DNA from: an uncultured archaeon
GTDB lineage: Archaea; Asgardarchaeota; Thorarchaeia; Thorarchaeales; Thorarchaeaceae
Assembly (NCBI GenBank): GCA_964458565.1
Contig: CAYWJO010000010.1
Coordinates: 1-64,000, forward strand
DNA: 64,000 nt
Reading direction: 5' to 3'
Both the position numbers and the translations under genes were made by a program. The notes beneath the pieces were generated by a model. That model was not told the origin of the DNA. It did no database searches and worked only from the letters and a program-made list of their open reading frames with translations. This document shows positions 35,996 through 45,411 of this stretch, piece by piece; within the stretch, counting starts at the first letter, position 1, and every line of letters begins with the position of its first letter.

Positions 35996-36712
35996 CTAGA
36001 ACCTCCGTAATGGTCGGATGCCAAACTCACCCATTCTTACCATGAGACTCTCAGGTTTTTTCAAAGTTGGTGATCTTTCAATCTTAATCTGGAAAGTGTA
36101 ACCGTGATTTTCAAAAGCGGTTATTCGAATCATGGAATCAATTGAGTGCTCCAGAACATTTCCCCCTACAGGTCGTGATGCACCAGTTATAGGATCTCGG
36201 GATGAATGGTCAGTGATTACAAGATGACTTGGAGAATCAATCATTGTTTCTCTTAGAGTTTCAAGCATGGAAAACAGGCGACGTTGCCTTTTCTTACTAC
36301 TAGGAGGCAAATTGAGATTGAGAGCACCTGTAAGACTATCAAGCACAATTATCGAGTAATTTGTAGCAACAGATGCAATAATTTCCTCAATATCATCCAA
36401 ACCCATGACATTTGCTACCATCAATTTCTGTAATGCATCTTCATTAGCATCACCCATAAGGCGTCTTGCAAGTGTTGGTTTGAAGTTGGTTCCTGAATCA
36501 AGATACACAGTCAGTTTACCGGAACGAATACATCCAACTGCAATCTCATGAGAGAGAATTGTCATTGGTGATCTCATTGGACCGTGAATAAGTGATATTT
36601 GTCCCGGGATGAGAACTGAACTAAACAAATCGTTTAGCTGCGGCGGGTAGAGTATTATTTCTGATTGCAAGTCAATTGAAAATTCATCAAGTGTCGTCAT
36701 TTTGCTCTTCAA
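35996..36712 (-). CDS. RadB/Rad51-paralog-like RecA-fold protein with degenerate Walker A
   Basis: PGQISLIHGPMRSPMT (no GKT), YLDSG, IVLDSL, PVGGNVLEH. Confidence 0.7.
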   Translation of the reverse strand: MKSKMTTLDEFSIDLQSEIILYPPQLNDLFSSVLIPGQISLIHGPMRSPMTILSHEIAVGCIRSGKLTVYLDSGTNFKPTLARRLMGDANEDALQKLMVANVMGLDDIEEIIASVATNYSIIVLDSLTGALNLNLPPSSKKRQRRLFSMLETLRETMIDSPSHLVITDHSSRDPITGASRPVGGNVLEHSIDSMIRITAFENHGYTFQIKIERSPTLKKPESLMVRMGEFGIRPLRRF

Positions 36713-37652
36713 CTCGTTTTATTGGTAATTTCCGCTCTAGGATGAGGCTTCGTAGTTCATTCGAATGCAAACTTGCGGAGGTCAACCCTGTTGCAAGTTC
36801 CTTTGGGACAAGTGCAGAAATCCCAGGTTTTGATGGAAAAATGGTTGTTCCAGGAGCCCATGAATCAATCAACAGACTGACTGAATTTGGATCTGTCATA
36901 TATTCATAATCAGTGAAAGTTATGCCAAAACGGGCATCTATGAAAGGTAATGCAAGAATTGCTTTCGTAAGTGTATGTGAGCATACTTTCGGACAATGCG
37001 TTTCAGGTAATTCAAGAATGTTCACAACATCTTCGATTGGAACCAGACTTGTATCAACGACAAGAGCGTCCATATCATTAAGATGAGTTAGAGAAACAGA
37101 CCACTCAACTCGTTGCTGAAATATCTCAATGATGCTATTATGGGCCCCCAAGGGAATGTGTAGTGCCTTTAGTTTGCTCGCAAGTTGGTCTACATACACC
37201 CATAACTCATCATCACTGATAGAATCAATGCCTCTTGCGGCCATGGAAGTATCTAATGATAACTTGTGATTGAACCCCTCATTTAAGCGGACCACAATTT
37301 GGTTAGGGTTCCGTACAACTGCACACAAGATAGTTACAGACGCTGTACCGACAATCGAAAAAAGCAATCCATTTTCTAAGCCTATGATGAAAACTGTTAC
37401 ACTCAAAAAAATAGTTGCAGTCCAACCAAGAACATTGGTAATCATTTTCACAGGTTCATTGAACATTGATGATCCTGCAATTCGAAGTACACCGAGAGTG
37501 ACTAGAAAGACTAGTATCAATGGTATATTATTTCCTAGTCTATAAGCAATTACAATAGAGTTTACAGAAGTGATTAGCTGTGTCCCCAATGTGAGTGTAA
37601 TTGCCCCAATTACTGCATACTTGGCTATACGAAAGATTGTTCCTCCGAACAT
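36687..37652 (-). CDS. membrane protein (about 4 N-terminal TM helices plus soluble domain)
   Basis: Four hydrophobic segments in the first ~115 aa; overlaps both neighbours. Confidence 0.7.
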   Translation of the reverse strand: MFGGTIFRIAKYAVIGAITLTLGTQLITSVNSIVIAYRLGNNIPLILVFLVTLGVLRIAGSSMFNEPVKMITNVLGWTATIFLSVTVFIIGLENGLLFSIVGTASVTILCAVVRNPNQIVVRLNEGFNHKLSLDTSMAARGIDSISDDELWVYVDQLASKLKALHIPLGAHNSIIEIFQQRVEWSVSLTHLNDMDALVVDTSLVPIEDVVNILELPETHCPKVCSHTLTKAILALPFIDARFGITFTDYEYMTDPNSVSLLIDSWAPGTTIFPSKPGISALVPKELATGLTSASLHSNELRSLILERKLPIKRVEEQNDDT

Positions 37653-38341
37653 TTCGAAACCCCCTTGATTGATTCGCTGATAGCGAGGCGAGTGACTTTC
37701 GGTAGTCCGTCGCTTTTCAGAACCTGAATCGCTATCTGTGTATTATTTATTGTATCATTAATTTCAGTGCGATAGCTTCCATGTGGACGAAGAAGTTGAA
37801 GGTCGATGTCAACCCATTTTCTAAGAGCATCATGGAAAACCGGTTTGGGCCCTTCAGAATCAAGAGTTCGACATTCACTAGTGCACAGAATTGATATTTT
37901 TCTTGAGGTGACAAGTCCAGCTAAATATGGAAGGACATCTTCAACCATCTCTCGTCCCCAGAGCAGAGGGTCACGTCGAGCCATATCAAGGACTCGAGTA
38001 ATTGTGTCAATTATTACAAGAGATGTCGTATCATCTATCTCGCTCTTGAGGTTAGTTATGGCATCATACGTTTCTGAACTTCCCTTTGTGAGAATTATCA
38101 CGATGTTTGAAGAATTACCATTATATAGTGCAACTAAATCCCTTAAGCGCTGAATGAAGTTTACTTTGAAATCAGTGCATATCCAGATTACATGCGAGTT
38201 TCTACTTTTTATTGCAGCTGCTTGCATGGCTAACAAAGTTTTTCCTGAACCTGAAGCACCCCATAGATGAATAAATCCTTGAACACCTAAATATTTCAAT
38301 AAATCTGATTCTTGAGATAGAGAAGAATCAGAGTTTCGCAT
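37625..38341 (-). CDS. RadB/Rad51-paralog-like RecA-fold ATPase
   Basis: HLWGASGSGKT Walker A, LVIIDT Walker B; no N-terminal HhH domain. Confidence 0.78.
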   Translation of the reverse strand: MRNSDSSLSQESDLLKYLGVQGFIHLWGASGSGKTLLAMQAAAIKSRNSHVIWICTDFKVNFIQRLRDLVALYNGNSSNIVIILTKGSSETYDAITNLKSEIDDTTSLVIIDTITRVLDMARRDPLLWGREMVEDVLPYLAGLVTSRKISILCTSECRTLDSEGPKPVFHDALRKWVDIDLQLLRPHGSYRTEINDTINNTQIAIQVLKSDGLPKVTRLAISESIKGVSKCSEEQSFV

Positions 38342-38347
38342 CAGAAT

Positions 38348-40027
38348 CTATTCCTCCTCTGATTTCTCAACCTTGTCTTTAATCTCTTGCAGATGGATCT
38401 CGGTTTTCATCTTTATAACATCATCAGCAATCAAATCAGTTTGAATAGTTTCTCTTGCTTTACGATGGCGTCGCGGAATAGTTTCTGGTTCCCTAGGAGT
38501 TGATTCTGAAGTCGTGTCTTCTGAAGTTCTGACGACATCTTGTGTTGAGTCTGCTATAATTGAAATTTCTTCTAATCCATCTTCTTCATTTGAATCAGTC
38601 AAATCCTGAAGAACAGAATCATATTCTCCCTTGATTTCCTCGTCGGACTCGGGGTCAGGTTCTTCTACCGTTGGGGAATATTCCGCTTCAGGAATTGACT
38701 CGGCTAAAGCATCAGTGAGCTCTTCACTAACATGGTGCATACTCCAATTATTGAGCACATCATCAACTGTGTCCTTGACTTGGGGGCTTAGAACCCCCGA
38801 GTTAAAGAGGACTAGGCTTAAACTAGTCAGATGTGTCACTACCTCATCTCCAGAAAGTGCCGCTTCAGTGTGTCCAGTCAGGGCAGAGTATGCTAGAGCA
38901 AGAGATTCTTCCTCACCATCCTCGAAATTCACTTCTAGGAACTGGAACAACCCTAGAAATTTGGACAACCCCTTATCAGCTGTGAAAGGAGTATCTTTAG
39001 GTGGATGTAGTCCAGGGGAGAGACGAACACATTCATCTAAAACAATAGAAGCATAATGTACTGATTCGTTTACATCTCCGTTAGAGATAGACTCTACCGA
39101 AGCCCCAAAAAGTGTTGGAATAACGAAATTCAATTCATTGATAACATTTAGTTGCTCCTTGTTTTGATGTACGGTTTCCTCAATCCGTTTCAAATCACCG
39201 ATACCAGACAACTGCATAGATTCAGCTTCTCTTGATTCTTTGAAAATCTCAATTTGTCTCTTGGATATATACGAAAAATATGCTGTAAGTATAACTGATG
39301 CGAGAAGTGTAATTCCAGCAATTGGAATTAGCCATGATTGTTCCAAGATTGCAAATAATATGGAAATAGTAGCGAGTAAAGTTAGAGAGATTCCTAGTAG
39401 TGAATAAAAGCTCATCAGCGTGGCTTTCTGAAGTGAGTCCCATTTCTCTGTATCAATCCCTTGTTTTAATTCAGGAAGTCTAGAACGAGCATCACTTGAA
39501 CGAGCAATTGCGAATTCATTTATTGAGAGAATACGGTTCCCCTCGGTAATCCAAGAAAGGTCGTATGATGGACGGACATCATTTGTAACAACATATACTG
39601 TACGGGTTTCATGAATCAAAGAGGTCTTGTTCTTTTTTAGAGCTGCTTTGCTGGGAGCTAACAGGCGTAATGGAATTTTACCCCATACGGTCCGAATTGA
39701 TTTCTCAACGAGTTGATCGTTTAATGATAGCTCATTCATGATTGACTCCAAAGGTCGATTAATGACATCCAGGACATGGGATTTCATACCTGCAGGACTT
39801 TTCCCAAATTTGGCACTTCTAAGATCTAGTACATGTACAACCTCAACATGAACTCCTCTTGTATCAGGAATTCCAGAGAATCTTATACCTATGCTAATTC
39901 CATTCTCCTTTTTTAATGTGTGATGACCACTTCGGTCTAGGATTCGTATGATATCATAGTCCTTGGCAGTTGTTGTGTCTGTATCTTCTATTTCAGTATG
40001 AGTTGTTTTTTCCTCACTCGCAACCAT
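38348..40027 (-). CDS. membrane protein (two central TM helices, acidic low-complexity C-terminus)
   Basis: Hydrophobic hairpin at about aa 203-255; D/E-rich tail. Confidence 0.7.
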   Translation of the reverse strand: MVASEEKTTHTEIEDTDTTTAKDYDIIRILDRSGHHTLKKENGISIGIRFSGIPDTRGVHVEVVHVLDLRSAKFGKSPAGMKSHVLDVINRPLESIMNELSLNDQLVEKSIRTVWGKIPLRLLAPSKAALKKNKTSLIHETRTVYVVTNDVRPSYDLSWITEGNRILSINEFAIARSSDARSRLPELKQGIDTEKWDSLQKATLMSFYSLLGISLTLLATISILFAILEQSWLIPIAGITLLASVILTAYFSYISKRQIEIFKESREAESMQLSGIGDLKRIEETVHQNKEQLNVINELNFVIPTLFGASVESISNGDVNESVHYASIVLDECVRLSPGLHPPKDTPFTADKGLSKFLGLFQFLEVNFEDGEEESLALAYSALTGHTEAALSGDEVVTHLTSLSLVLFNSGVLSPQVKDTVDDVLNNWSMHHVSEELTDALAESIPEAEYSPTVEEPDPESDEEIKGEYDSVLQDLTDSNEEDGLEEISIIADSTQDVVRTSEDTTSESTPREPETIPRRHRKARETIQTDLIADDVIKMKTEIHLQEIKDKVEKSEEE

Positions 40028-42224
40028 TTTCTTTCACTCCGGGATTCAGTTTATTCAATCGTTCTTCAATATCAAGCAGAAGTCGGTTTGCCATTTCAGA
40101 TGGTTCCTCAAGACCTCCTACATCAGAAACTGCAGCGATGCAATACAAAAGCCAGCGACTCTGCTCTAAAAGAGCAACAACATCGCCCAGATGACGGCCA
40201 ATGCTCTTGCATATATCTTCAAGAGATATATCGGTAGTAGCAGCAGTGAGAAGTGTATTCTCAAATTGCTCATCAACAATATATGGACTCTCAAGTGATA
40301 TGAGATGTTTCAAGAGGGTCAGCAATTCAGAAGTCGTGTTAGTGACCGATAGAAGTGGTAGCATCTCTCGAACTGTACTTACCCGTAGATATAATCGGTT
40401 CACGACTCTACCCAAATGTGTAGGTTTCATTTTACTGTCATCCGCACCTTCCACTAGAGAGAGACGAATTAGAGTCATCAGCGGACTCACATCATTCAAT
40501 GCAAGAGGAATGACATAGTTCGTAAAATTGGGGACTTGTTGTATGGAATGTAGTCCTAAGGCTACTAAATGAGTACACAATAGTCGATCATGGGAAAATG
40601 GTTCACCACAAGAGCACATAGGTCCTTCAATGATACCATTAGTATCGGTTCGTGCAGAGAAGCGACATGTGTGATGTCCACCTCCTATCGATGTAACAAT
40701 GCCACCAACAACTGTGTCAGAGGTTTCACGAAGCTTGACTGAACCTAGAACGCCTTCACGTGCCGCTCTGACTGTTGCTCCTAACGCATATCTTTCAATC
40801 GAGCTTTCTGCAGTAACATCACCTAGATTTATCATTCTCATGGGTGAACGTGTATCACGAACCCCCATATGCATTAGAAACGATTCTCCTATCAAGCCTT
40901 GTTCAATATCAGTTATACTTCCCTGCTCACAGTAATCTAAAAACACCAGGAGTTGTTCAGCAAGAGCAGTTGAATCATGAAGAACGCTAATGACAGGCTC
41001 ATATCGTGGATGCAGTATCTCAGTGTTGGATTCAGGATCTTTGGTAGAAACGAAGTAGGTCTTTTTGACATATTCAGCTTCAGCGTAGCTATCAGTAAGA
41101 ATTATTCCATACCCTTTCTTGTCTTTTCCAGGACGCCCTGCTCTTCCCAACATTTGATGGACATGATTAGCTGAGAGATACTTCTGATAATCACCAGGAG
41201 ATCTTGTAGTCGAAATCACAACCGTGCGTGCTGGAAGATCCATACCAGCAGCAAGCGTTGTTGTGGCGCAGATGACTCTTACAAGACCGGTTCGGAATAA
41301 TCGCTCGATCAATCGACGGGAAGATGAATTCAATCCTGCATGATGAAAGGCAACCCCATCATGAAGGAGTGAGCGCAATTCGGAAGGTATATTGACATTC
41401 CAATTTTCAATGGAATCCAAATGCGAATCAAGATCTGTACGCTCCTTTATTGTTAGCTGTTTACTAACATGATATGAGAGTTCTACAGCTCCGATTTCTG
41501 CCTCTCGACGGGTTCGCATAAATACTACAGCCTGCCCATTTGCTTGAACCGTAGTCATCACAAAATCGCGAATCGCCTTCTTTTTGTCTTTGGATGGAAA
41601 TATCTTAGATACTAATGGAACAGGCCTCTCGTTTGAGTGAATTAGTTCACAATCTAGCCACTCTGCAAGATGAGCAGGTTCACCTATGGTAGCAGACAGT
41701 GCTACTATTTGTAAGTCATCTACTAGACGTCTCAACCGAATGATTGTACCTTCTAGCCTTGGTCCTCGTTCAGGTTGTGATAGAGTCTGAATTTCATCAA
41801 TTACTACTGTACCAATTTCAGAAAGCCAAGGAGTTCTATGTCGAAGAAGAGAGTCAGTACGTTCATAGGTTGTCACAATTATGTCATGGTCACCTAGTTC
41901 ATCACCCACAGTATGAAAATCGCCAGTGCTGATACCAATTGAAAATCCATGAGGTGTGTATCGTTCCTTGAAGGTTTCAGCAACTTGTACTGCAAGAGCG
42001 CGCAACGGAACCAAATAGAGCCCACGACGCCCATACATGACGGAACGAAGAAGTGCCATTTCTCCAACCATTGTTTTTCCAGAACCTGTGGGACTACATA
42101 CCATGATACTTCGGCCATTCAATAGACCCTTGTCCACAGATTCGATTTGAATTCCTCGAGGGCGAATACCCACTTGACCCAACAATCTGCCAACCTGAGT
42201 GGGTATTTCCTCAGTTGTGATCAA
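40014..42224 (-). CDS. Ski2-like (Hel308/HELQ-type) DExH helicase with inserted SWIM zinc finger
   Basis: SPTGSGKT, DEIQ, ALSAT, AFHHAGL, ATTTLAAGMDLPAR, QMLGRAGRPG; CSC-x10-CTH SWIM motif. Confidence 0.88.
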   Translation of the reverse strand: MITTEEIPTQVGRLLGQVGIRPRGIQIESVDKGLLNGRSIMVCSPTGSGKTMVGEMALLRSVMYGRRGLYLVPLRALAVQVAETFKERYTPHGFSIGISTGDFHTVGDELGDHDIIVTTYERTDSLLRHRTPWLSEIGTVVIDEIQTLSQPERGPRLEGTIIRLRRLVDDLQIVALSATIGEPAHLAEWLDCELIHSNERPVPLVSKIFPSKDKKKAIRDFVMTTVQANGQAVVFMRTRREAEIGAVELSYHVSKQLTIKERTDLDSHLDSIENWNVNIPSELRSLLHDGVAFHHAGLNSSSRRLIERLFRTGLVRVICATTTLAAGMDLPARTVVISTTRSPGDYQKYLSANHVHQMLGRAGRPGKDKKGYGIILTDSYAEAEYVKKTYFVSTKDPESNTEILHPRYEPVISVLHDSTALAEQLLVFLDYCEQGSITDIEQGLIGESFLMHMGVRDTRSPMRMINLGDVTAESSIERYALGATVRAAREGVLGSVKLRETSDTVVGGIVTSIGGGHHTCRFSARTDTNGIIEGPMCSCGEPFSHDRLLCTHLVALGLHSIQQVPNFTNYVIPLALNDVSPLMTLIRLSLVEGADDSKMKPTHLGRVVNRLYLRVSTVREMLPLLSVTNTTSELLTLLKHLISLESPYIVDEQFENTLLTAATTDISLEDICKSIGRHLGDVVALLEQSRWLLYCIAAVSDVGGLEEPSEMANRLLLDIEERLNKLNPGVKENGCE

Positions 42225-44554
42225 CCTTCACCCTCCAGGTCAGATAATTGTCGAAGAGCCATATCCCCCTTCATAGTAACACGATAATTGGTGTATGATA
42301 CACCACTATGTGTTTCATGTCCACGTAGTATCATACTTGAACTTTCAAGCCGAGCAATGATACCTTCGTAATCGACATCCTTCATATCGCCTGCAGACAT
42401 AAACTTGCGAATCGCTTCTTCAGTTAGAGGCTCATACTTCTTTAGTAGCCTAAGAACCTTCAGCGTGGCATCTCTATCACGTCCTGCAACTCTATCCAAT
42501 AATGAACCACTGGAGGTTGGAGAGTCAAGAATGGTTCCTGTAGATTTTATTCGTGATATTCGAAATTCCATGTCTTTAGACGAAGGTGACTCTGGCAGGA
42601 TAATATTGTCCAACTTCAAGGGGAGACAGACTTCAGTATCATCACGTGCAAGAAGCGCCATACCTGGTTCAAGAACTCGAAGATACGAACTCTCTCTGGG
42701 GGATACTCTCTGTTTTGAGTGCATCCCGGTGGAAATGACTGTTAATCCAAGGATATCAGACACTACTGCAATGTCATACTTGTTTCGCAATCTAAGTGCA
42801 ATGCATGAAGAGAGGACATCCGTTATACCAGTGGGTAATACTTGAGGCGCATTTGTGCTAATTACTAGTGGAACTCGATTGCTTAGGTTCTGTGCAACAC
42901 GGATTGCCCAAGGCAATCTCTTTTTGTATTTGGTAGTATTTACGATGAAATTAGAAGGTTCATCCAAAATCACAACTAAATCGTTATCAAGTTGTGACCA
43001 TGCAATCTTTGTACTTAACAAATCCCAGGCAAACATATCCAATTGAAGTGAGCCTGTTGAAATTACTAATACTGAAAGAGGTTGTTCTGTAAGTCGCTGA
43101 ACTGATATTGTCTGGTGTCCATAGAATGACTTTGCACCTGTACCTTGGTGAAGGACTCGAATTGCATCCATTGCTGCTCTTGATGAATCAGACACACTAG
43201 TTTCTGACTTAGTTGCATCATCACTTATTGGATCAACTGTTGAGAGCGTGATGTCAGCAACTGTTGCATTTCCTAATGCAACTGCTCTACTAAGCGCAAG
43301 CTCAAAATCTGCAGCAGAACTAAGCTCAGTTTCTGTCAGCACCTCCAGTGCTGTCTTTACTGATGACACAAACTCATTTCTCGGAACGCTTTCAGCATCA
43401 AGTGGATTGAGTACAAAATCTCGTCCAAGAACAAGTCCTAATCCATCTTGATGAAATCCAGTTAGGTTGAGGGATTCTTCATTTGATGTGACAAGTAGTA
43501 CGCGTTTATCATCATTGATCAACGCTGAAATCAATTGAGCAATTATACTCTGTCGCTCAACCCAAGATCCCCCGCAAAGAAGCAGACCAGTATCCAAATC
43601 ATTCTTGGAGAGACCAATCGAAGGTCCTGTTAGAAGTGTATCTGGATTAATTGATACACCAAGCCGATAGTCGCCAGGTCTGCTTCTAATTGGTGAAATG
43701 AACTGTCCAGGAACAGAACTTCCCACTTCAGAAGCCAATTCGCTGCTTAGTTGAACTAACCAATCCTTTAGCTCTCTCCCTGTAGTATAGAAACCAAAAT
43801 AGTTGGAAATTGGCATCCCGTTCTGAATCTTCTTCTCCAAATCATCTGGTGAAACTAGCTTTGATTTGAGGCCGGGGATAGTACCACGAACAGCGTTTTC
43901 AAGTGAACGCACTTTGGAAGAATCGTCTAAAATCCCGACAATTGATACATGTGTTTTCCACAGACCCCCTCGAGCTGACACATAAGCATCCATTTCACCA
44001 CTGGATTTTAACTCCAAGAAGGTTTCAAAATAGTCAGGGAAATGATCGTTATCAACAATCTCTTCAATTCTGGCTGGACCAAGTGTTACAGAAATGATAA
44101 TTCCAATTGAAGTATCAATGGAGCGAATCAATTTTCCTAAATTTCCTGACAACCGAGCTGGTGCTTTGTCAATTTCTAGCAGTGTGAAATAACGGTCACC
44201 ACCAGTCCCTCGAATACGAACTGACTTTTCGGAGGTGCTAAGAGTTAAATCCAATGAATCAAGCTCTGTCCATTCCGAGTCGGAAACAGATTTTGATTCA
44301 TTTGCTGTTGTCAGATATGGAAGAATCATTGCAAATGCTGCAACACTCATAGATGCAACGATTACTATCCAAGGATAGAAACAAGTGAGAATTACAACCG
44401 CAGCTGCAGTTAGTACATAGGGAATCCAATGAGGTCTAATCTCTCGATCTGTCCATCTTACCTCATTATCACGTGTAACAGATAAGGATGATTGACTGAC
44501 TTCCTCAAGGGGGTCTCGCTCTGGTTTACTCCCCATGATATGACCTCTAGTCAA
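42221..44554 (-). CDS. membrane-anchored HerA/VirB4/FtsK-superfamily ATPase-like protein with degenerate Walker A and C-terminal wHTH
   Basis: N-terminal TM pair; YRLG...L...DL..GLLLCGGSWVER at the Walker A position; GRDFVLNPL, VVILDEP, ISTNAPQ.L...IALRL, L.PGMALL; Y.VT.KG wing. Confidence 0.62.
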   Translation of the reverse strand: MTRGHIMGSKPERDPLEEVSQSSLSVTRDNEVRWTDREIRPHWIPYVLTAAAVVILTCFYPWIVIVASMSVAAFAMILPYLTTANESKSVSDSEWTELDSLDLTLSTSEKSVRIRGTGGDRYFTLLEIDKAPARLSGNLGKLIRSIDTSIGIIISVTLGPARIEEIVDNDHFPDYFETFLELKSSGEMDAYVSARGGLWKTHVSIVGILDDSSKVRSLENAVRGTIPGLKSKLVSPDDLEKKIQNGMPISNYFGFYTTGRELKDWLVQLSSELASEVGSSVPGQFISPIRSRPGDYRLGVSINPDTLLTGPSIGLSKNDLDTGLLLCGGSWVERQSIIAQLISALINDDKRVLLVTSNEESLNLTGFHQDGLGLVLGRDFVLNPLDAESVPRNEFVSSVKTALEVLTETELSSAADFELALSRAVALGNATVADITLSTVDPISDDATKSETSVSDSSRAAMDAIRVLHQGTGAKSFYGHQTISVQRLTEQPLSVLVISTGSLQLDMFAWDLLSTKIAWSQLDNDLVVILDEPSNFIVNTTKYKKRLPWAIRVAQNLSNRVPLVISTNAPQVLPTGITDVLSSCIALRLRNKYDIAVVSDILGLTVISTGMHSKQRVSPRESSYLRVLEPGMALLARDDTEVCLPLKLDNIILPESPSSKDMEFRISRIKSTGTILDSPTSSGSLLDRVAGRDRDATLKVLRLLKKYEPLTEEAIRKFMSAGDMKDVDYEGIIARLESSSMILRGHETHSGVSYTNYRVTMKGDMALRQLSDLEGEG

Positions 44555-44822
44555 GGTATCGACCCCCCTGTACTGATTTTAAAGCTGAGAGAATTCGTTC
44601 AATAGGTTCAACATACTGTGAGTCGTGTCCTTCAATTACTATCTGCCTTCCAATCATTCGGAGCATTGGCATATTGGGATAAGTCGTTTCACCGTAATAC
44701 ACATCTTTTGTTCTTGACGATAACTGAATCCAATTATAACCATGACCAGAGGAAAGTGCATTACGCACTATTCGTGGTTGTACTTCAAGAGGAATGTTGA
44801 GATAATGTTCAATGCTATTCAA
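44547..44822 (-). CDS. small hypothetical protein (about 91 aa)
   Basis: TTG start at 44822 preceded by GGAGGT; overlaps both neighbours by 8 nt. Confidence 0.55.
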   Translation of the reverse strand: MNSIEHYLNIPLEVQPRIVRNALSSGHGYNWIQLSSRTKDVYYGETTYPNMPMLRMIGRQIVIEGHDSQYVEPIERILSALKSVQGGRYLD

Positions 44823-45411
44823 TGATAGCAACACCTCCTGAAGTAATACTACGAGCCTGTGGGAGTGTAGCAGGTAAGACTGCCACATGTGGATAAGCTG
44901 ATCGCATTGCACTCTCCAGTACCTCCACATCATAGAGTAATTTCTCACTCAGTTTTGTGGCTTTGGAGATTCCATTGAGTAATCTAAGACCTCTCCTATG
45001 CACTGAAAATCCAACTTGTGTTTGACCAGCTCTTAATGGGCGTGAAACAAAGAACCTGACAAAAGACCCATCATTGGACTCATAGTGAAGAGACATGGCT
45101 TCAAGAACACGTTCAGCAGAATGAGTCAGGTCGATTCCTATAGGAACACTTCCGAGTTGGCGAATCGCAGTTACCTCAACAGTCCATTTACTCAGAGTGG
45201 TAATTATTCCAAGTTGCGAATTCCAAAGGTTCATTGAAACTCGTTGATGCTTTGAAAAGATTGACATCACAAGCAATAGTGCCACAAATCCCAATACAAC
45301 CTCAACACTAGGAATAACAGATTGTTGTAACCATGCTAGAATTGTCCAACCAGAAAACATTGAGGCAGGAAGTACATAACGGAATAGTGAATAATCAAGG
45401 ATTGTTTTCAT
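44815..45411 (-). CDS. membrane protein (two N-terminal TM helices plus soluble domain)
   Basis: Hydrophobic aa ~8-52; ATGA overlap with the helicase stop. Confidence 0.68.
   Translation of the reverse strand: MKTILDYSLFRYVLPASMFSGWTILAWLQQSVIPSVEVVLGFVALLLVMSIFSKHQRVSMNLWNSQLGIITTLSKWTVEVTAIRQLGSVPIGIDLTHSAERVLEAMSLHYESNDGSFVRFFVSRPLRAGQTQVGFSVHRRGLRLLNGISKATKLSEKLLYDVEVLESAMRSAYPHVAVLPATLPQARSITSGGVAIIE

What the first reader, a model, noticed from the sequence alone, without database searches (positions are those of the whole stretch)
42221..45411. Membrane-anchored HerA/VirB4-like pseudo-ATPase with small coupled partner genes
Seen: a 777-aa protein with an N-terminal TM pair and the FtsK/HerA/VirB4 motif order (lG...l...dl, DFVLNPL, VVILDEP, ST.APQ.L...IALRL, L.PG.ALL). 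The Walker A position reads CGGSWVER with no GK[ST], and a wHTH sits at the C-terminus. A 2-TM protein and a 91-aa protein precede it, all overlapping. Inference: a catalytically dead or non-canonical ring that scaffolds a membrane channel or tethers DNA and the recombination machinery to the membrane. The adjacent helicases could supply the motor.
Basis: partly seen in the sequence, partly recalled or inferred. Interest (0 to 1): 0.75.

Follow-up and report, generated by a model that had tools for sequence, protein, structure and literature searches.

The report
Motor-dead VirB4-like membrane protein, Thorarchaeota
This Asgard (Thorarchaeota) gene encodes a membrane-anchored protein shaped like the ATP-driven DNA pumps of conjugation and DNA-import machines, but its ATP-binding loop is rewritten in every relative; with two small partner proteins it sits inside a conserved DNA-recombination operon, so it most likely docks DNA and helicases at the membrane rather than acting as a motor.

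Summary

- **Fold:** VIA Z 27.4 to VirB4 4ag5. hhalign gives 99% probability to DUF87 ATPases.
- **Catalytic site:** the Walker A position reads CGGSWVERQ. Invariant R334 sits where the lysine should be, and there is no GK[ST] in 38 orthologues. The catalytic Glu and the sensor Gln are not conserved. This is a family trait, not decay.
- **Partner genes:** both are real and overlap their neighbours by 8 nt. The 198-aa protein looks like a stand-alone copy of the TM hairpin plus VirB4-type N-domain. The 91-aa protein is a conserved orphan.
- **Context:** in 46 Thorarchaeota loci the trio lies in the same 15-gene order, between an XPD-like and a Hel308-like helicase. The cluster also holds a second RadA, RadA paralogues and FEN1.
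- **Wider family:** distant relatives in other Asgard lineages are sometimes split into two genes. They again sit beside membrane proteins and a second RadA, helicases, a nuclease or an active HerA-like ATPase.

Best reading: a non-catalytic, DNA-binding membrane hub of a recombination or DNA-uptake machine. The function is inferred.

This scan noted the same family earlier in other Thorarchaeota genomes. I found no paper describing it.

The parts
44815..45411 (-). g198: 198-aa partner protein with a TM hairpin plus an alpha/beta domain of VirB4-N-terminal type. It appears to be an N-domain-only paralogue of the 777-aa protein.
   Evidence: - Present in every Thorarchaeota locus that has upstream sequence.
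- AF2 model pLDDT 85.5, with the same element order as T777 residues 44-245.
- Atlas shape hits: N-terminal parts of archaeal DUF87/HerA_C ATPases and VirB4_TrbE_N clusters, TM 0.49-0.56.
- TrwK residues 15-206: Z 6.5 over 134 aa.
- Its HMM hits the split N-domain proteins of distant Asgard systems (E 3.9e-6 and 4.8e-5). Those proteins also match the T777 profile.
44547..44822 (-). g91: 91-aa soluble partner protein. It is a conserved orphan with GHGYxW and MPELL motifs, and its fold and function are unknown.
   Evidence: - Aligned in 33 loci.
- An ORF of similar size and motif fills the same slot in the 8 loci that BLAST missed.
- 8-nt overlaps with both neighbours.
- No Pfam, NCBIfam, PADLOC or Atlas match.
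42221..44554 (-). T777: 777-aa membrane-anchored VirB4/HerA-fold protein with a degenerate nucleotide site and a C-terminal wHTH.
44279..44554 (-). T777 residues 1-92: conserved N-terminal peptide (GSKPExDPLEE, RWxDR) and the TM hairpin (~43-82).
   Evidence: Alignment A1, hydropathy and the model.
43769..44257 (-). T777 residues 100-262: alpha/beta N-domain, tentatively VirB4-N-like.
   Evidence: - Full-length TrwK/VirB4 chains align over model residues 7-672 with 437-485 aligned residues at rmsd 7.9-9.7 Å, against about 320 at 2.8 Å for the C-domain alone. This is indicative only.
- Same topology as g198.
- Matches the split N-domain proteins of other Asgard lineages.
43688..43780 (-). T777 residues 259-289: the most conserved stretch (FYxxGxELxxWLVQLxSELASEVGSNVPGEF). 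It links the N-domain to the core and is modelled with low confidence.
   Evidence: Invariant G259, W265, Q268, E272, L273, E276, G278, P282, F285 and I289. pLDDT is below 50 over 273-289.
42575..43687 (-). T777 residues 290-660: VirB4/HerA/TrwB-fold P-loop core.
   Evidence: - VIA: 4ag5_B Z 27.4; DndH-C Z 24.7; HerA 4d2i Z 24.7; TrwB Z 21.6.
- hhalign to DUF87 proteins: 99% probability, E 2.7e-18 over 362 columns.
43550..43576 (-). Pseudo-Walker A, C327-Q335 (CGGSWVERQ). R334 occupies the Walker A lysine position.
   Evidence: hmmalign and hhalign both place R334 on the Lys of GSGKT. Across orthologues G328 is 38/38, G329 37/38 and R334 38/38; positions 331 and 333 are never Gly and 335 is variable.
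42956..42976 (-). Walker B remnant, V527-P533 (VVILDEP).
   Evidence: D531 is D 30, E 7, N 1. E532 is G 14, N 7, E 6, D 6, T 3, so the catalytic Glu is not conserved.
42686..42724 (-). Conserved basic loop, M611-S623 (MHSKQRVSPRESS; family consensus MHSKARxSxRESS). It is a candidate DNA- or partner-contact loop.
   Evidence: Invariant K614, R616, S618, R620, E621 and S623. Low pLDDT over 606-617. The DNA-contact role is inference only.
42224..42502 (-). T777 residues 685-777: PadR-like winged helix-turn-helix with RYEPLTEE, GHExH and YxNYRxTMKG motifs.
   Evidence: PadR/HTH_34 hits also occur in distant relatives P0153, P0171 and P0172.

Best explanation
T777 is a member of an Asgard-specific branch of the FtsK-HerA/VirB4 ATPase superfamily. 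It keeps the whole VirB4-like body: a TM hairpin, an N-domain that may be VirB4-like, a RecA-like core and a fused PadR-like wHTH. Its nucleotide site has been rebuilt: GGxxxxR replaces GxxGxGK[ST], and there is no conserved catalytic Glu or sensor Gln.

It most likely does not hydrolyse ATP. It probably works as a membrane-anchored, oligomeric docking platform together with g198 (an N-domain-only paralogue anchored by its own TM hairpin) and g91.

The platform would hold DNA through the wHTH and the conserved basic loop. It would hand that DNA to, or receive it from, the translationally coupled XPD-like and Hel308-like helicases, which do the ATP-driven work. The cluster's own second RadA, the RadA paralogues and FEN1 would then recombine and trim it.

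- **Shown:** fold, membrane anchor, fixed loss of catalytic motifs, homology of g198 to the N-domain, strict synteny.
- **Inferred:** lack of ATPase activity, oligomeric ring, DNA binding, contact with the helicases, and any passage of DNA across the membrane.
For: **Fold**
- Foldseek top hits are TrwK/VirB4 (E 4.5e-13) and HerA.
- VIA gives Z 27.4, rmsd 2.8 Å over 320 aa to the VirB4 C-domain 4ag5, with HerA, DndH-C and TrwB at Z 21-25.
- hhalign to canonical DUF87 ATPases gives 99% probability.
- Atlas neighbours are archaeal DUF87, CedB and VirB4-like clusters.

**Dead site as a family trait**
- 38/38 orthologues have G328 and R334, and none has GK[ST].
- 71 of 88 distant relatives carry R at the Lys position. 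Only the weakest hits are canonical GSGKT proteins.
- E532 and N568 vary.

**Selection**
- 131 full-length homologues at 40-69% identity, with invariant motifs.
- A single copy in this genome, beside 7 canonical DUF87 genes.

**Partners**
- g198 and g91 are present in every locus and overlap their neighbours by 8 nt.
- g198 is VirB4-N-like and is bridged to the T777 N-domain.

**Context**
- The same 15-gene order in 46 Thorarchaeota species.
- Distant Asgard relatives lie next to a second RadA, a RadA-paralogue-like gene, Ski2/Hel308-like helicases, a PLD nuclease or a Walker-A-positive HerA_C-like ATPase, always with small membrane proteins.

**Precedent**
- The archaeal Ced/Ted DNA-import systems use membrane VirB4-like proteins. 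CedB and CedD share out the VirB4 N-domain, and Ted loci carry Rad50 and HerA-like genes (PMC11868833; PMC9905601).
Against: - No biochemical data exist.
- An invariant Arg at the Walker-A Lys position, a mostly kept Walker-B Asp/Glu (37/38) and R588/R590 leave nucleotide binding, or even slow hydrolysis, possible. R588 aligns with an Arg of HerA.
- No VirB2-like pilin, VirB6-like or CedA-like channel was recognised in the cluster. The other membrane proteins, g559 and g321, have no family match.
- The oligomeric state was not tested.
- The cluster was not found in 24 of 76 genomes of the same family, some 90-93% complete. It is therefore dispensable or accessory.
Confidence: 0.55

Rival explanations
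1. T777 is still an NTPase, or at least a nucleotide-gated switch, with a non-canonical P-loop. R334 would replace the Walker lysine and D531 would hold the metal, so the ring itself would translocate DNA.
For: - R334 is invariant exactly at the Lys position.
- D531 is D/E in 37 of 38 orthologues, and this copy keeps DE.
- R588 and R590 are conserved.
- The core is modelled with high confidence.
Against: - The two loop glycines and the Mg-binding Ser/Thr are absent in all members.
- The catalytic Glu position is Gly or Asn in most orthologues, and the sensor Gln is variable.
- Lys-to-Arg changes in Walker A normally abolish hydrolysis (established knowledge of P-loop NTPases).
- In one distant locus a canonical HerA_C-like ATPase sits next door, as if it supplied the activity.
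Confidence: 0.15
2. T777 is mainly a membrane-tethered regulator. The PadR-like wHTH would bind operator DNA, and the dead ATPase body would sense a membrane or envelope signal to control the recombination operon.
For: - The PadR-like tail is the most conserved domain after the linker.
- The wHTH is kept in distant relatives.
Against: - A 680-aa VirB4-like body with its own N-domain paralogue and strict translational coupling between two helicases is unusual for a repressor.
- The family occurs with varied neighbours but always with membrane proteins.
- No operator repeat was sought or seen.
Confidence: 0.12
3. The trio belongs to a defence or mobile-element system. HerA-like rings scaffold Sir2, DUF4297, Dnd and Tdp effectors, so the cluster would be an anti-invader or element-borne module rather than a cellular repair or uptake machine.
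For: - Structural neighbours include DndH-C (Z 24.7) and the defence HerA complexes.
- The cluster is patchy within the family, 52 of 76 genomes.
- Its flanks differ between species.
Against: - No PADLOC match for any of 8 cluster proteins.
- No integrase was seen among the genes scanned beside the cluster, and there is no tRNA in the window.
- GC content is flat across the cluster.
- Gene order is conserved at 40-46% protein identity across 46 species, which suggests long vertical inheritance.
Confidence: 0.1
4. The gene is a decaying VirB4/HerA pseudogene with no function.
For: Loss of the catalytic motifs.
Against: - The 777-codon frame is intact.
- 131 full-length homologues share dozens of invariant residues.
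- The same rewritten loop appears in all of them.
Confidence: 0.01

Closest known systems
VirB4 / TrwK, the type IV secretion ATPase (PDB 4ag5, 7o42, 7o43, 8rtd)
   Same: - Best structural match for the core: Z 27.4, rmsd 2.8 Å over 320 aa.
- Full-length TrwK chains also align across the N-domain: 437-485 aligned residues over model residues 7-672, though at rmsd 7.9-9.7 Å.
- Two-domain N+C build at the inner face of the membrane.
- An N-terminal TM hairpin, as in VirB3-VirB4 fusions (own knowledge).
- g198 resembles VirB4_TrbE_N clusters and TrwK residues 15-206.
   Different: - No Pfam or NCBIfam VirB4 model matches.
- Walker A is GGxxxxR, and there is no conserved catalytic Glu.
- A fused PadR-like wHTH.
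- No recognisable VirB2, VirB6, VirB8 or VirD4 partners.
- It is embedded in a RadA/XPD/Hel308/FEN1 operon.
HerA / DUF87 (PF01935) hexameric DNA translocases (PDB 4d2i, 9x1m, 8ziq)
   Same: - Profile-profile homology: 99%, E 2.7e-18 over 362 columns.
- VIA Z 24.7.
- NPxD and SLRL motifs are shared.
- Link to DNA-end processing and recombination.
   Different: - No PF01935 hit, even at E 0.1.
- Dead P-loop.
- Membrane anchor.
- The N-domain looks VirB4-like rather than an evident HAS barrel.
- No NurA, Mre11 or Rad50 in the cluster.
CedB/CedD (Sulfolobales Ced) and TedB (Thermoproteales Ted) DNA-import ATPases
   Same: - Archaeal, membrane-associated VirB4/HerA-like proteins with VirB4-type N-domains.
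- The N-domain is shared out between two paralogous proteins, CedB and CedD (PMC11868833). This parallels g198 + T777 and the split genes in other Asgard lineages.
- Functional link to homologous-recombination repair; Ted loci carry Rad50 and HerA-like genes (PMC9905601).
- An Atlas 'CedB' cluster is among the nearest by features, score 0.91.
   Different: - CedB is thought to power DNA translocation (PMC9905601); T777 lacks the catalytic motifs.
- No significant sequence match.
- No CedA (VirB6-like) or CedA1 (pilin) counterpart was recognised.
- Ced genes are not fused to a wHTH (own knowledge).

Membership tests
FtsK-HerA / VirB4 superfamily (ASCE P-loop fold) | RecA-like P-loop core with the superfamily's fold | tested here: met
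   VIA Z 27.4 (VirB4), 24.7 (HerA), 21.6 (TrwB) and 15 (FtsK) over model residues 287-660. hhalign gives 99% to DUF87 proteins.
FtsK-HerA / VirB4 superfamily (ASCE P-loop fold) | Walker A GxxxxGK[ST] | tested here: not met
   The loop reads CGGSWVERQ. R334 is at the Lys position, the glycines at 331 and 333 are absent, and there is no Ser/Thr at 335. The same holds in all 38 orthologues.
FtsK-HerA / VirB4 superfamily (ASCE P-loop fold) | Walker B hhhh[DE]E with a catalytic Glu | tested here: not met
   D531 is kept (D/E in 37 of 38). E532 is G, N, E, D or T across orthologues; this copy happens to have DE.
FtsK-HerA / VirB4 superfamily (ASCE P-loop fold) | Conserved polar (Gln) sensor after the strand following Walker B, and an arginine finger (features as I recall them from Iyer et al. 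2004, which is not held) | tested here: inconclusive
   The position aligned to the Gln is N568, which is E, D or N in orthologues, and the next residue is mostly His. The arginine-finger position could not be mapped without coordinates. R588 and R590 are conserved.
VirB4 family (Pfam PF03135 / PF27097 / PF19044) | Match to the curated family models | tested here: not met
   No Pfam or NCBIfam hit for T777 at E 0.1-1, nor for any of the 38 orthologues.
VirB4 family (Pfam PF03135 / PF27097 / PF19044) | VirB4-type N-terminal domain | tested here: inconclusive
   Whole-chain alignment to TrwK covers the N-domain, but at rmsd 7.9-9.7 Å. The paralogous g198 domain hits VirB4_TrbE_N clusters at TM ~0.5 and TrwK residues 15-206 at Z 6.5. 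The T777 N-domain was not folded alone.
Type IV secretion / Ced-Ted DNA-transfer system | Companion VirB2-like pilin and VirB6/CedA-like polytopic channel | tested here: inconclusive
   No family match for any cluster membrane protein: g198, g559 (TM ~210-252) or g321 (about 4 TM). Their folds, other than g198, were not predicted.
PadR-like winged helix (PF03551) | wHTH with a PadR-type recognition helix and wing | tested here: met
   The support is weak but consistent. The tail profile hits 3l7w_A (E 4.8e-4, the only hit under 0.01) and about 30 PadR-family entries at E 0.06-1.1. Pfam PadR matches 7 of 17 tails, best 4.9e-5. The model shows the H-H-H-b-b-H order.

The most novel reading that the evidence does not exclude
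Asgard archaea may carry a type-IV-secretion-derived DNA uptake or exchange apparatus in which the VirB4 ATPase has become a passive, DNA-binding membrane ring. That ring would be built from a full-length subunit plus an N-domain-only subunit. SF2 helicases (XPD-like, Hel308-like) would pull the DNA, and a dedicated second RadA with its paralogues and FEN1 would recombine it. [quoted passage not shown]
Probability: 0.2. Interest if true: 0.9.

Novelty: new variant of a known kind. Interest (0 to 1): 0.6.

Why it matters
VirB4 is the one ATPase common to all conjugation-type machines (own knowledge), and the archaeal DNA-import systems Ced and Ted use VirB4-like proteins. A whole Asgard-wide branch has kept the VirB4 body, membrane anchor and partners but has fixed a dead nucleotide site and added a DNA-binding tail. 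That would be a clear natural case of a secretion motor turned into a scaffold.

Its hard linkage to a spare recombinase, two helicases and a flap nuclease makes a specific hypothesis testable: membrane-coupled DNA exchange or repair in Asgard archaea. That bears on how recombination-based genome exchange looked before eukaryotic sex.

It also gives names and domain boundaries to three families that are annotated only as 'hypothetical protein' and have no Pfam model.

Tried and rejected
- **Complex prediction:** T777 100-777 + g198 58-198 + g91 as partner gave no verdict, score 0.00. This is neither for nor against binding.
- **g198 versus the T777 N-domain, direct comparison:** BLAST found nothing. 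hhalign gave only a 28-column local match, LESAMRAAYPH ~ FESAVRGAIP, P 0.0064-0.033. The link was made instead through the split N-domain proteins and fold searches.
- **g198 fold search in PDB:** the top rows are type III secretion class-I chaperones at Z 7.4-8.8, which is the middling range. I read this as a shared simple alpha/beta arrangement, not as function.
- **Sequence searches of T777 against PDB:** no significant hit; HerA came up at E 0.5 only.
- **Defence families:** PADLOC gave none.
- **Mobile-element signs:** no tRNA in the window and flat GC.
- **g91:** no Atlas lead, and no HMM hit in distant loci.
- **RadA tree:** built to ask whether the cluster RadA of a distant Asgard genome is orthologous to the Thorarchaeota cluster RadA. 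It is unresolved, a three-way split.
- **Literature:** six searches found no description of this family or cluster. Iyer et al. 2004 is not held.
- **Numbering error:** an early call mis-numbered Walker B as D523. The correct residues are D531/E532.
Full report
**What is there**

The minus strand of the window carries a run of tightly packed genes from about 50640 down to 35004. The finding covers three of them:
- g198, 44815-45411
- g91, 44547-44822 (TTG start)
- T777, 42221-44554, 777 aa

Successive genes overlap: XPD/g198 by 4 nt, g198/g91 by 8 nt, g91/T777 by 8 nt and T777/Hel308 by 4 nt. This fits translational coupling. Neighbouring genes, such as a Ras-family GTPase fused to a BBS2-like propeller, together with the names of the homologues, place the organism in the Asgard class Thorarchaeia.

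**Fold**

T777 has no Pfam, NCBIfam or PDB sequence match. An AlphaFold2 model built on 38 orthologues has mean pLDDT 75.7, with 85-94 over residues 320-600. It gives:
- Foldseek top hits to TrwK/VirB4 (E 4.5e-13) and HerA;
- in VIA-align, Z 27.4, rmsd 2.8 Å over 320 residues to the VirB4 C-domain of Thermoanaerobacter (4ag5);
- behind that, DndH-C (24.7), HerA (24.7), TrwB (21.6) and FtsK (15).

Full-length TrwK chains align from model residue 7 to about 672 with 437-485 residues, but at rmsd 7.9-9.7 Å. This suggests the N-domain may also be VirB4-like, without showing it.

A profile of the family reached a few canonical DUF87/HerA ATPases at E 2e-5 to 6e-4 in a 1.84-billion-protein library. 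Profile-profile comparison with them gives 99% probability, E 2.7e-18 over 362 columns. The C-terminal 100 residues form a PadR-like winged helix.

The architecture is therefore: conserved N-peptide, TM hairpin (~43-82), N-domain (~100-262), a very conserved linker (259-289), a VirB4/HerA core (~290-660) and a wHTH (685-777).

**The nucleotide site**

Two independent alignments, hmmalign and hhalign, put C327-G-G-S-W-V-E-R334-Q on F-G-T-T-G-S-G-K-T of canonical relatives.

| Position | Role | State in 38 Thorarchaeota orthologues |
|---|---|---|
| G328 | first Walker A glycine | G 38/38 |
| G329 | – | G 37/38 |
| 331, 333 | inner Walker A glycines | never Gly |
| R334 | Walker A lysine position | R 38/38 |
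| 335 | Mg-binding Ser/Thr | variable |
| D531 | Walker B acid | D 30, E 7, N 1 |
| E532 | catalytic Glu | G 14, N 7, E 6, D 6, T 3 |
| N568 | sensor Gln | E, D or N |

Among 94 more distant relatives, 71 of 88 aligned have Arg at the lysine position. Only five have Lys, and these include the canonical HerA-like outliers.

The loss is thus ancient and fixed, not decay of this copy. The genome has one copy of this family and seven canonical DUF87 genes elsewhere. An invariant Arg at the lysine position, together with R588 and R590, leaves nucleotide or phosphate binding open, so 'non-catalytic' is a strong inference and not a measurement.

**The partners**

*g198.* It is conserved in every locus with upstream sequence. 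Its model (pLDDT 85.5) has a TM hairpin followed by b-b-b-a-b-b-a-b-a. This is the same order as T777 residues 44-245 apart from a helical insert.
- Direct sequence comparison with the T777 N-domain is weak.
- The g198 HMM hits the stand-alone 'TM + N-domain' proteins of two distant Asgard systems, at E 3.9e-6 and 4.8e-5 in that small search. Those proteins match the T777 profile over positions 28-212.
- A shape search of the ESM Atlas returns N-terminal parts of archaeal DUF87/HerA_C ATPases and VirB4_TrbE_N clusters, TM 0.49-0.56.
- TrwK residues 15-206 match at Z 6.5.

I read g198 as an N-domain-only paralogue of T777. This checks and supports an earlier first-reader note of this scan.

*g91.* It is a soluble orphan with GHGYxW and MPELL motifs. 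It is found in 33 loci by BLAST and, in diverged form, in the remaining 8. Nothing is known about its fold.

**Context**

Orthologues are ~780 aa and come almost only from Thorarchaeota. In 46 species-level loci the gene order is invariant:

g240 - g176 - RadA - g148 - g204 - XPD - g198 - g91 - T777 - Hel308-like - g559 - g238a - g321 - g238b - FEN1

The RadA in the cluster is a second, lower-scoring copy. Within the same taxonomic family, 52 of 76 sampled genomes have the gene, and some 90-93% complete genomes do not.

Outside Thorarchaeia the superfamily recurs in other Asgard families, and the Arg loop is kept in most aligned members (71 of 88):

| Locus | Lineage | Arrangement |
|---|---|---|
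| L062 | sister family | keeps half of the cluster |
| L060 | another family (f19) | second RadA - M28-domain membrane protein - 2-TM protein - 282-aa N-domain gene - 520-aa core+wHTH gene |
| L061 | third family (f12) | M28-domain membrane protein - N-domain gene - core gene - PLD nuclease; Ski2-like helicase and g238a-like gene nearby |
| L003 | distant relative | family member followed by a Walker-A-positive HerA_C-like ATPase |
| L004 | distant relative | a Hel308-like helicase lies two genes upstream |

In the five distant loci whose upstream genes were checked for TM segments, small polytopic or bitopic membrane proteins precede the gene.

**Mechanism**

The best-supported reading is a non-catalytic VirB4-like membrane platform. 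It would be made of T777 with g198, and probably g91. It would bind DNA through the wHTH and a conserved basic loop and couple it to the flanking helicases and the cluster's recombinase set.

Whether DNA crosses the membrane, as in a Ced/Ted-like import system, or is only held at it cannot be decided. No pilin-like or VirB6/CedA-like component was recognised, but three cluster membrane proteins remain unfolded.

The precedents are the archaeal Ced and Ted systems:
- they are T4SS derivatives;
- their VirB4-like ATPase has a VirB4-type N-domain shared between the paralogues CedB and CedD;
- Ted loci carry Rad50 and HerA-like genes (PMC9905601; PMC11868833).

Rivals are an unusual but active NTPase, a membrane-tethered regulator, and a defence or mobile module. 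Simple decay is excluded.

**Novelty**

No Pfam, NCBIfam or PADLOC model covers T777, g198 or g91, and six literature searches found no description. The fold and the idea of degenerate ATPase subunits are known, so this is a new variant of a known kind.

The same scan has already noted this family in other Thorarchaeota genomes, with similar conclusions. This report adds four things:
- the residue-level mapping, with R334 at the Walker lysine and the corrected D531/E532;
- the identification of g198 as an N-domain paralogue;
- the split-gene forms in other Asgard lineages;
- the recurrent link to a second RadA and other DNA enzymes outside Thorarchaeia.

Noticed in passing
window 50874-53225 (-): A 783-aa protein fuses an FG-GAP/BBS2/BBS7-like beta-propeller and an Ig-like domain to a complete Ras/Rab-type GTPase (Pfam Ras 3.6e-47, Beta-prop_BBS7 1.6e-15). 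It lies just upstream of the recombination cluster.
   Followed up: no
L060:4223-10947 (+) and L061:8892-14962 (-): In two other Asgard families the VirB4-like pseudo-ATPase is split into a 'TM + N-domain' gene (282 or 357 aa) and a 'core + wHTH' gene (520 or 481 aa). It follows a very large membrane protein with an M28 peptidase domain (888 or 1016 aa). One locus starts with a second RadA, and the other ends with a PLD-like nuclease.
   Followed up: partly
L003:10001-14931 (+): A distant family member (847 aa, GGTVEQR loop) is followed directly by a 794-aa HerA_C-like protein with an intact GxxxxGK[ST] and a C-terminal TM segment. This may be a dead/live ATPase pair.
   Followed up: partly
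window 44815-44822 and 44547-44554: Both small-gene junctions use the same 8-nt overlap pattern, TTGAnTAG: a TTG start 5 nt before the upstream TAG stop.
   Followed up: no
L042 (MAXT01000013.1, 2130 bases): A 2.1-kb contig filed under 'Desulfuromonadales bacterium' encodes a 49%-identical fragment of T777 followed by the Hel308-like gene. It is most likely a mis-binned Thorarchaeota contig.
   Followed up: no
window 35996-38341 and 38348-40027 (-): Downstream cluster genes include a RadA-paralogue pair. g238a has GASGSGKT; g238b is a weak Rad51 hit without Walker A. The pair is separated by a 321-aa protein with about 4 N-terminal TM segments. There is also a 559-aa protein with a central TM region. 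Neither membrane protein has any family match.
   Followed up: partly
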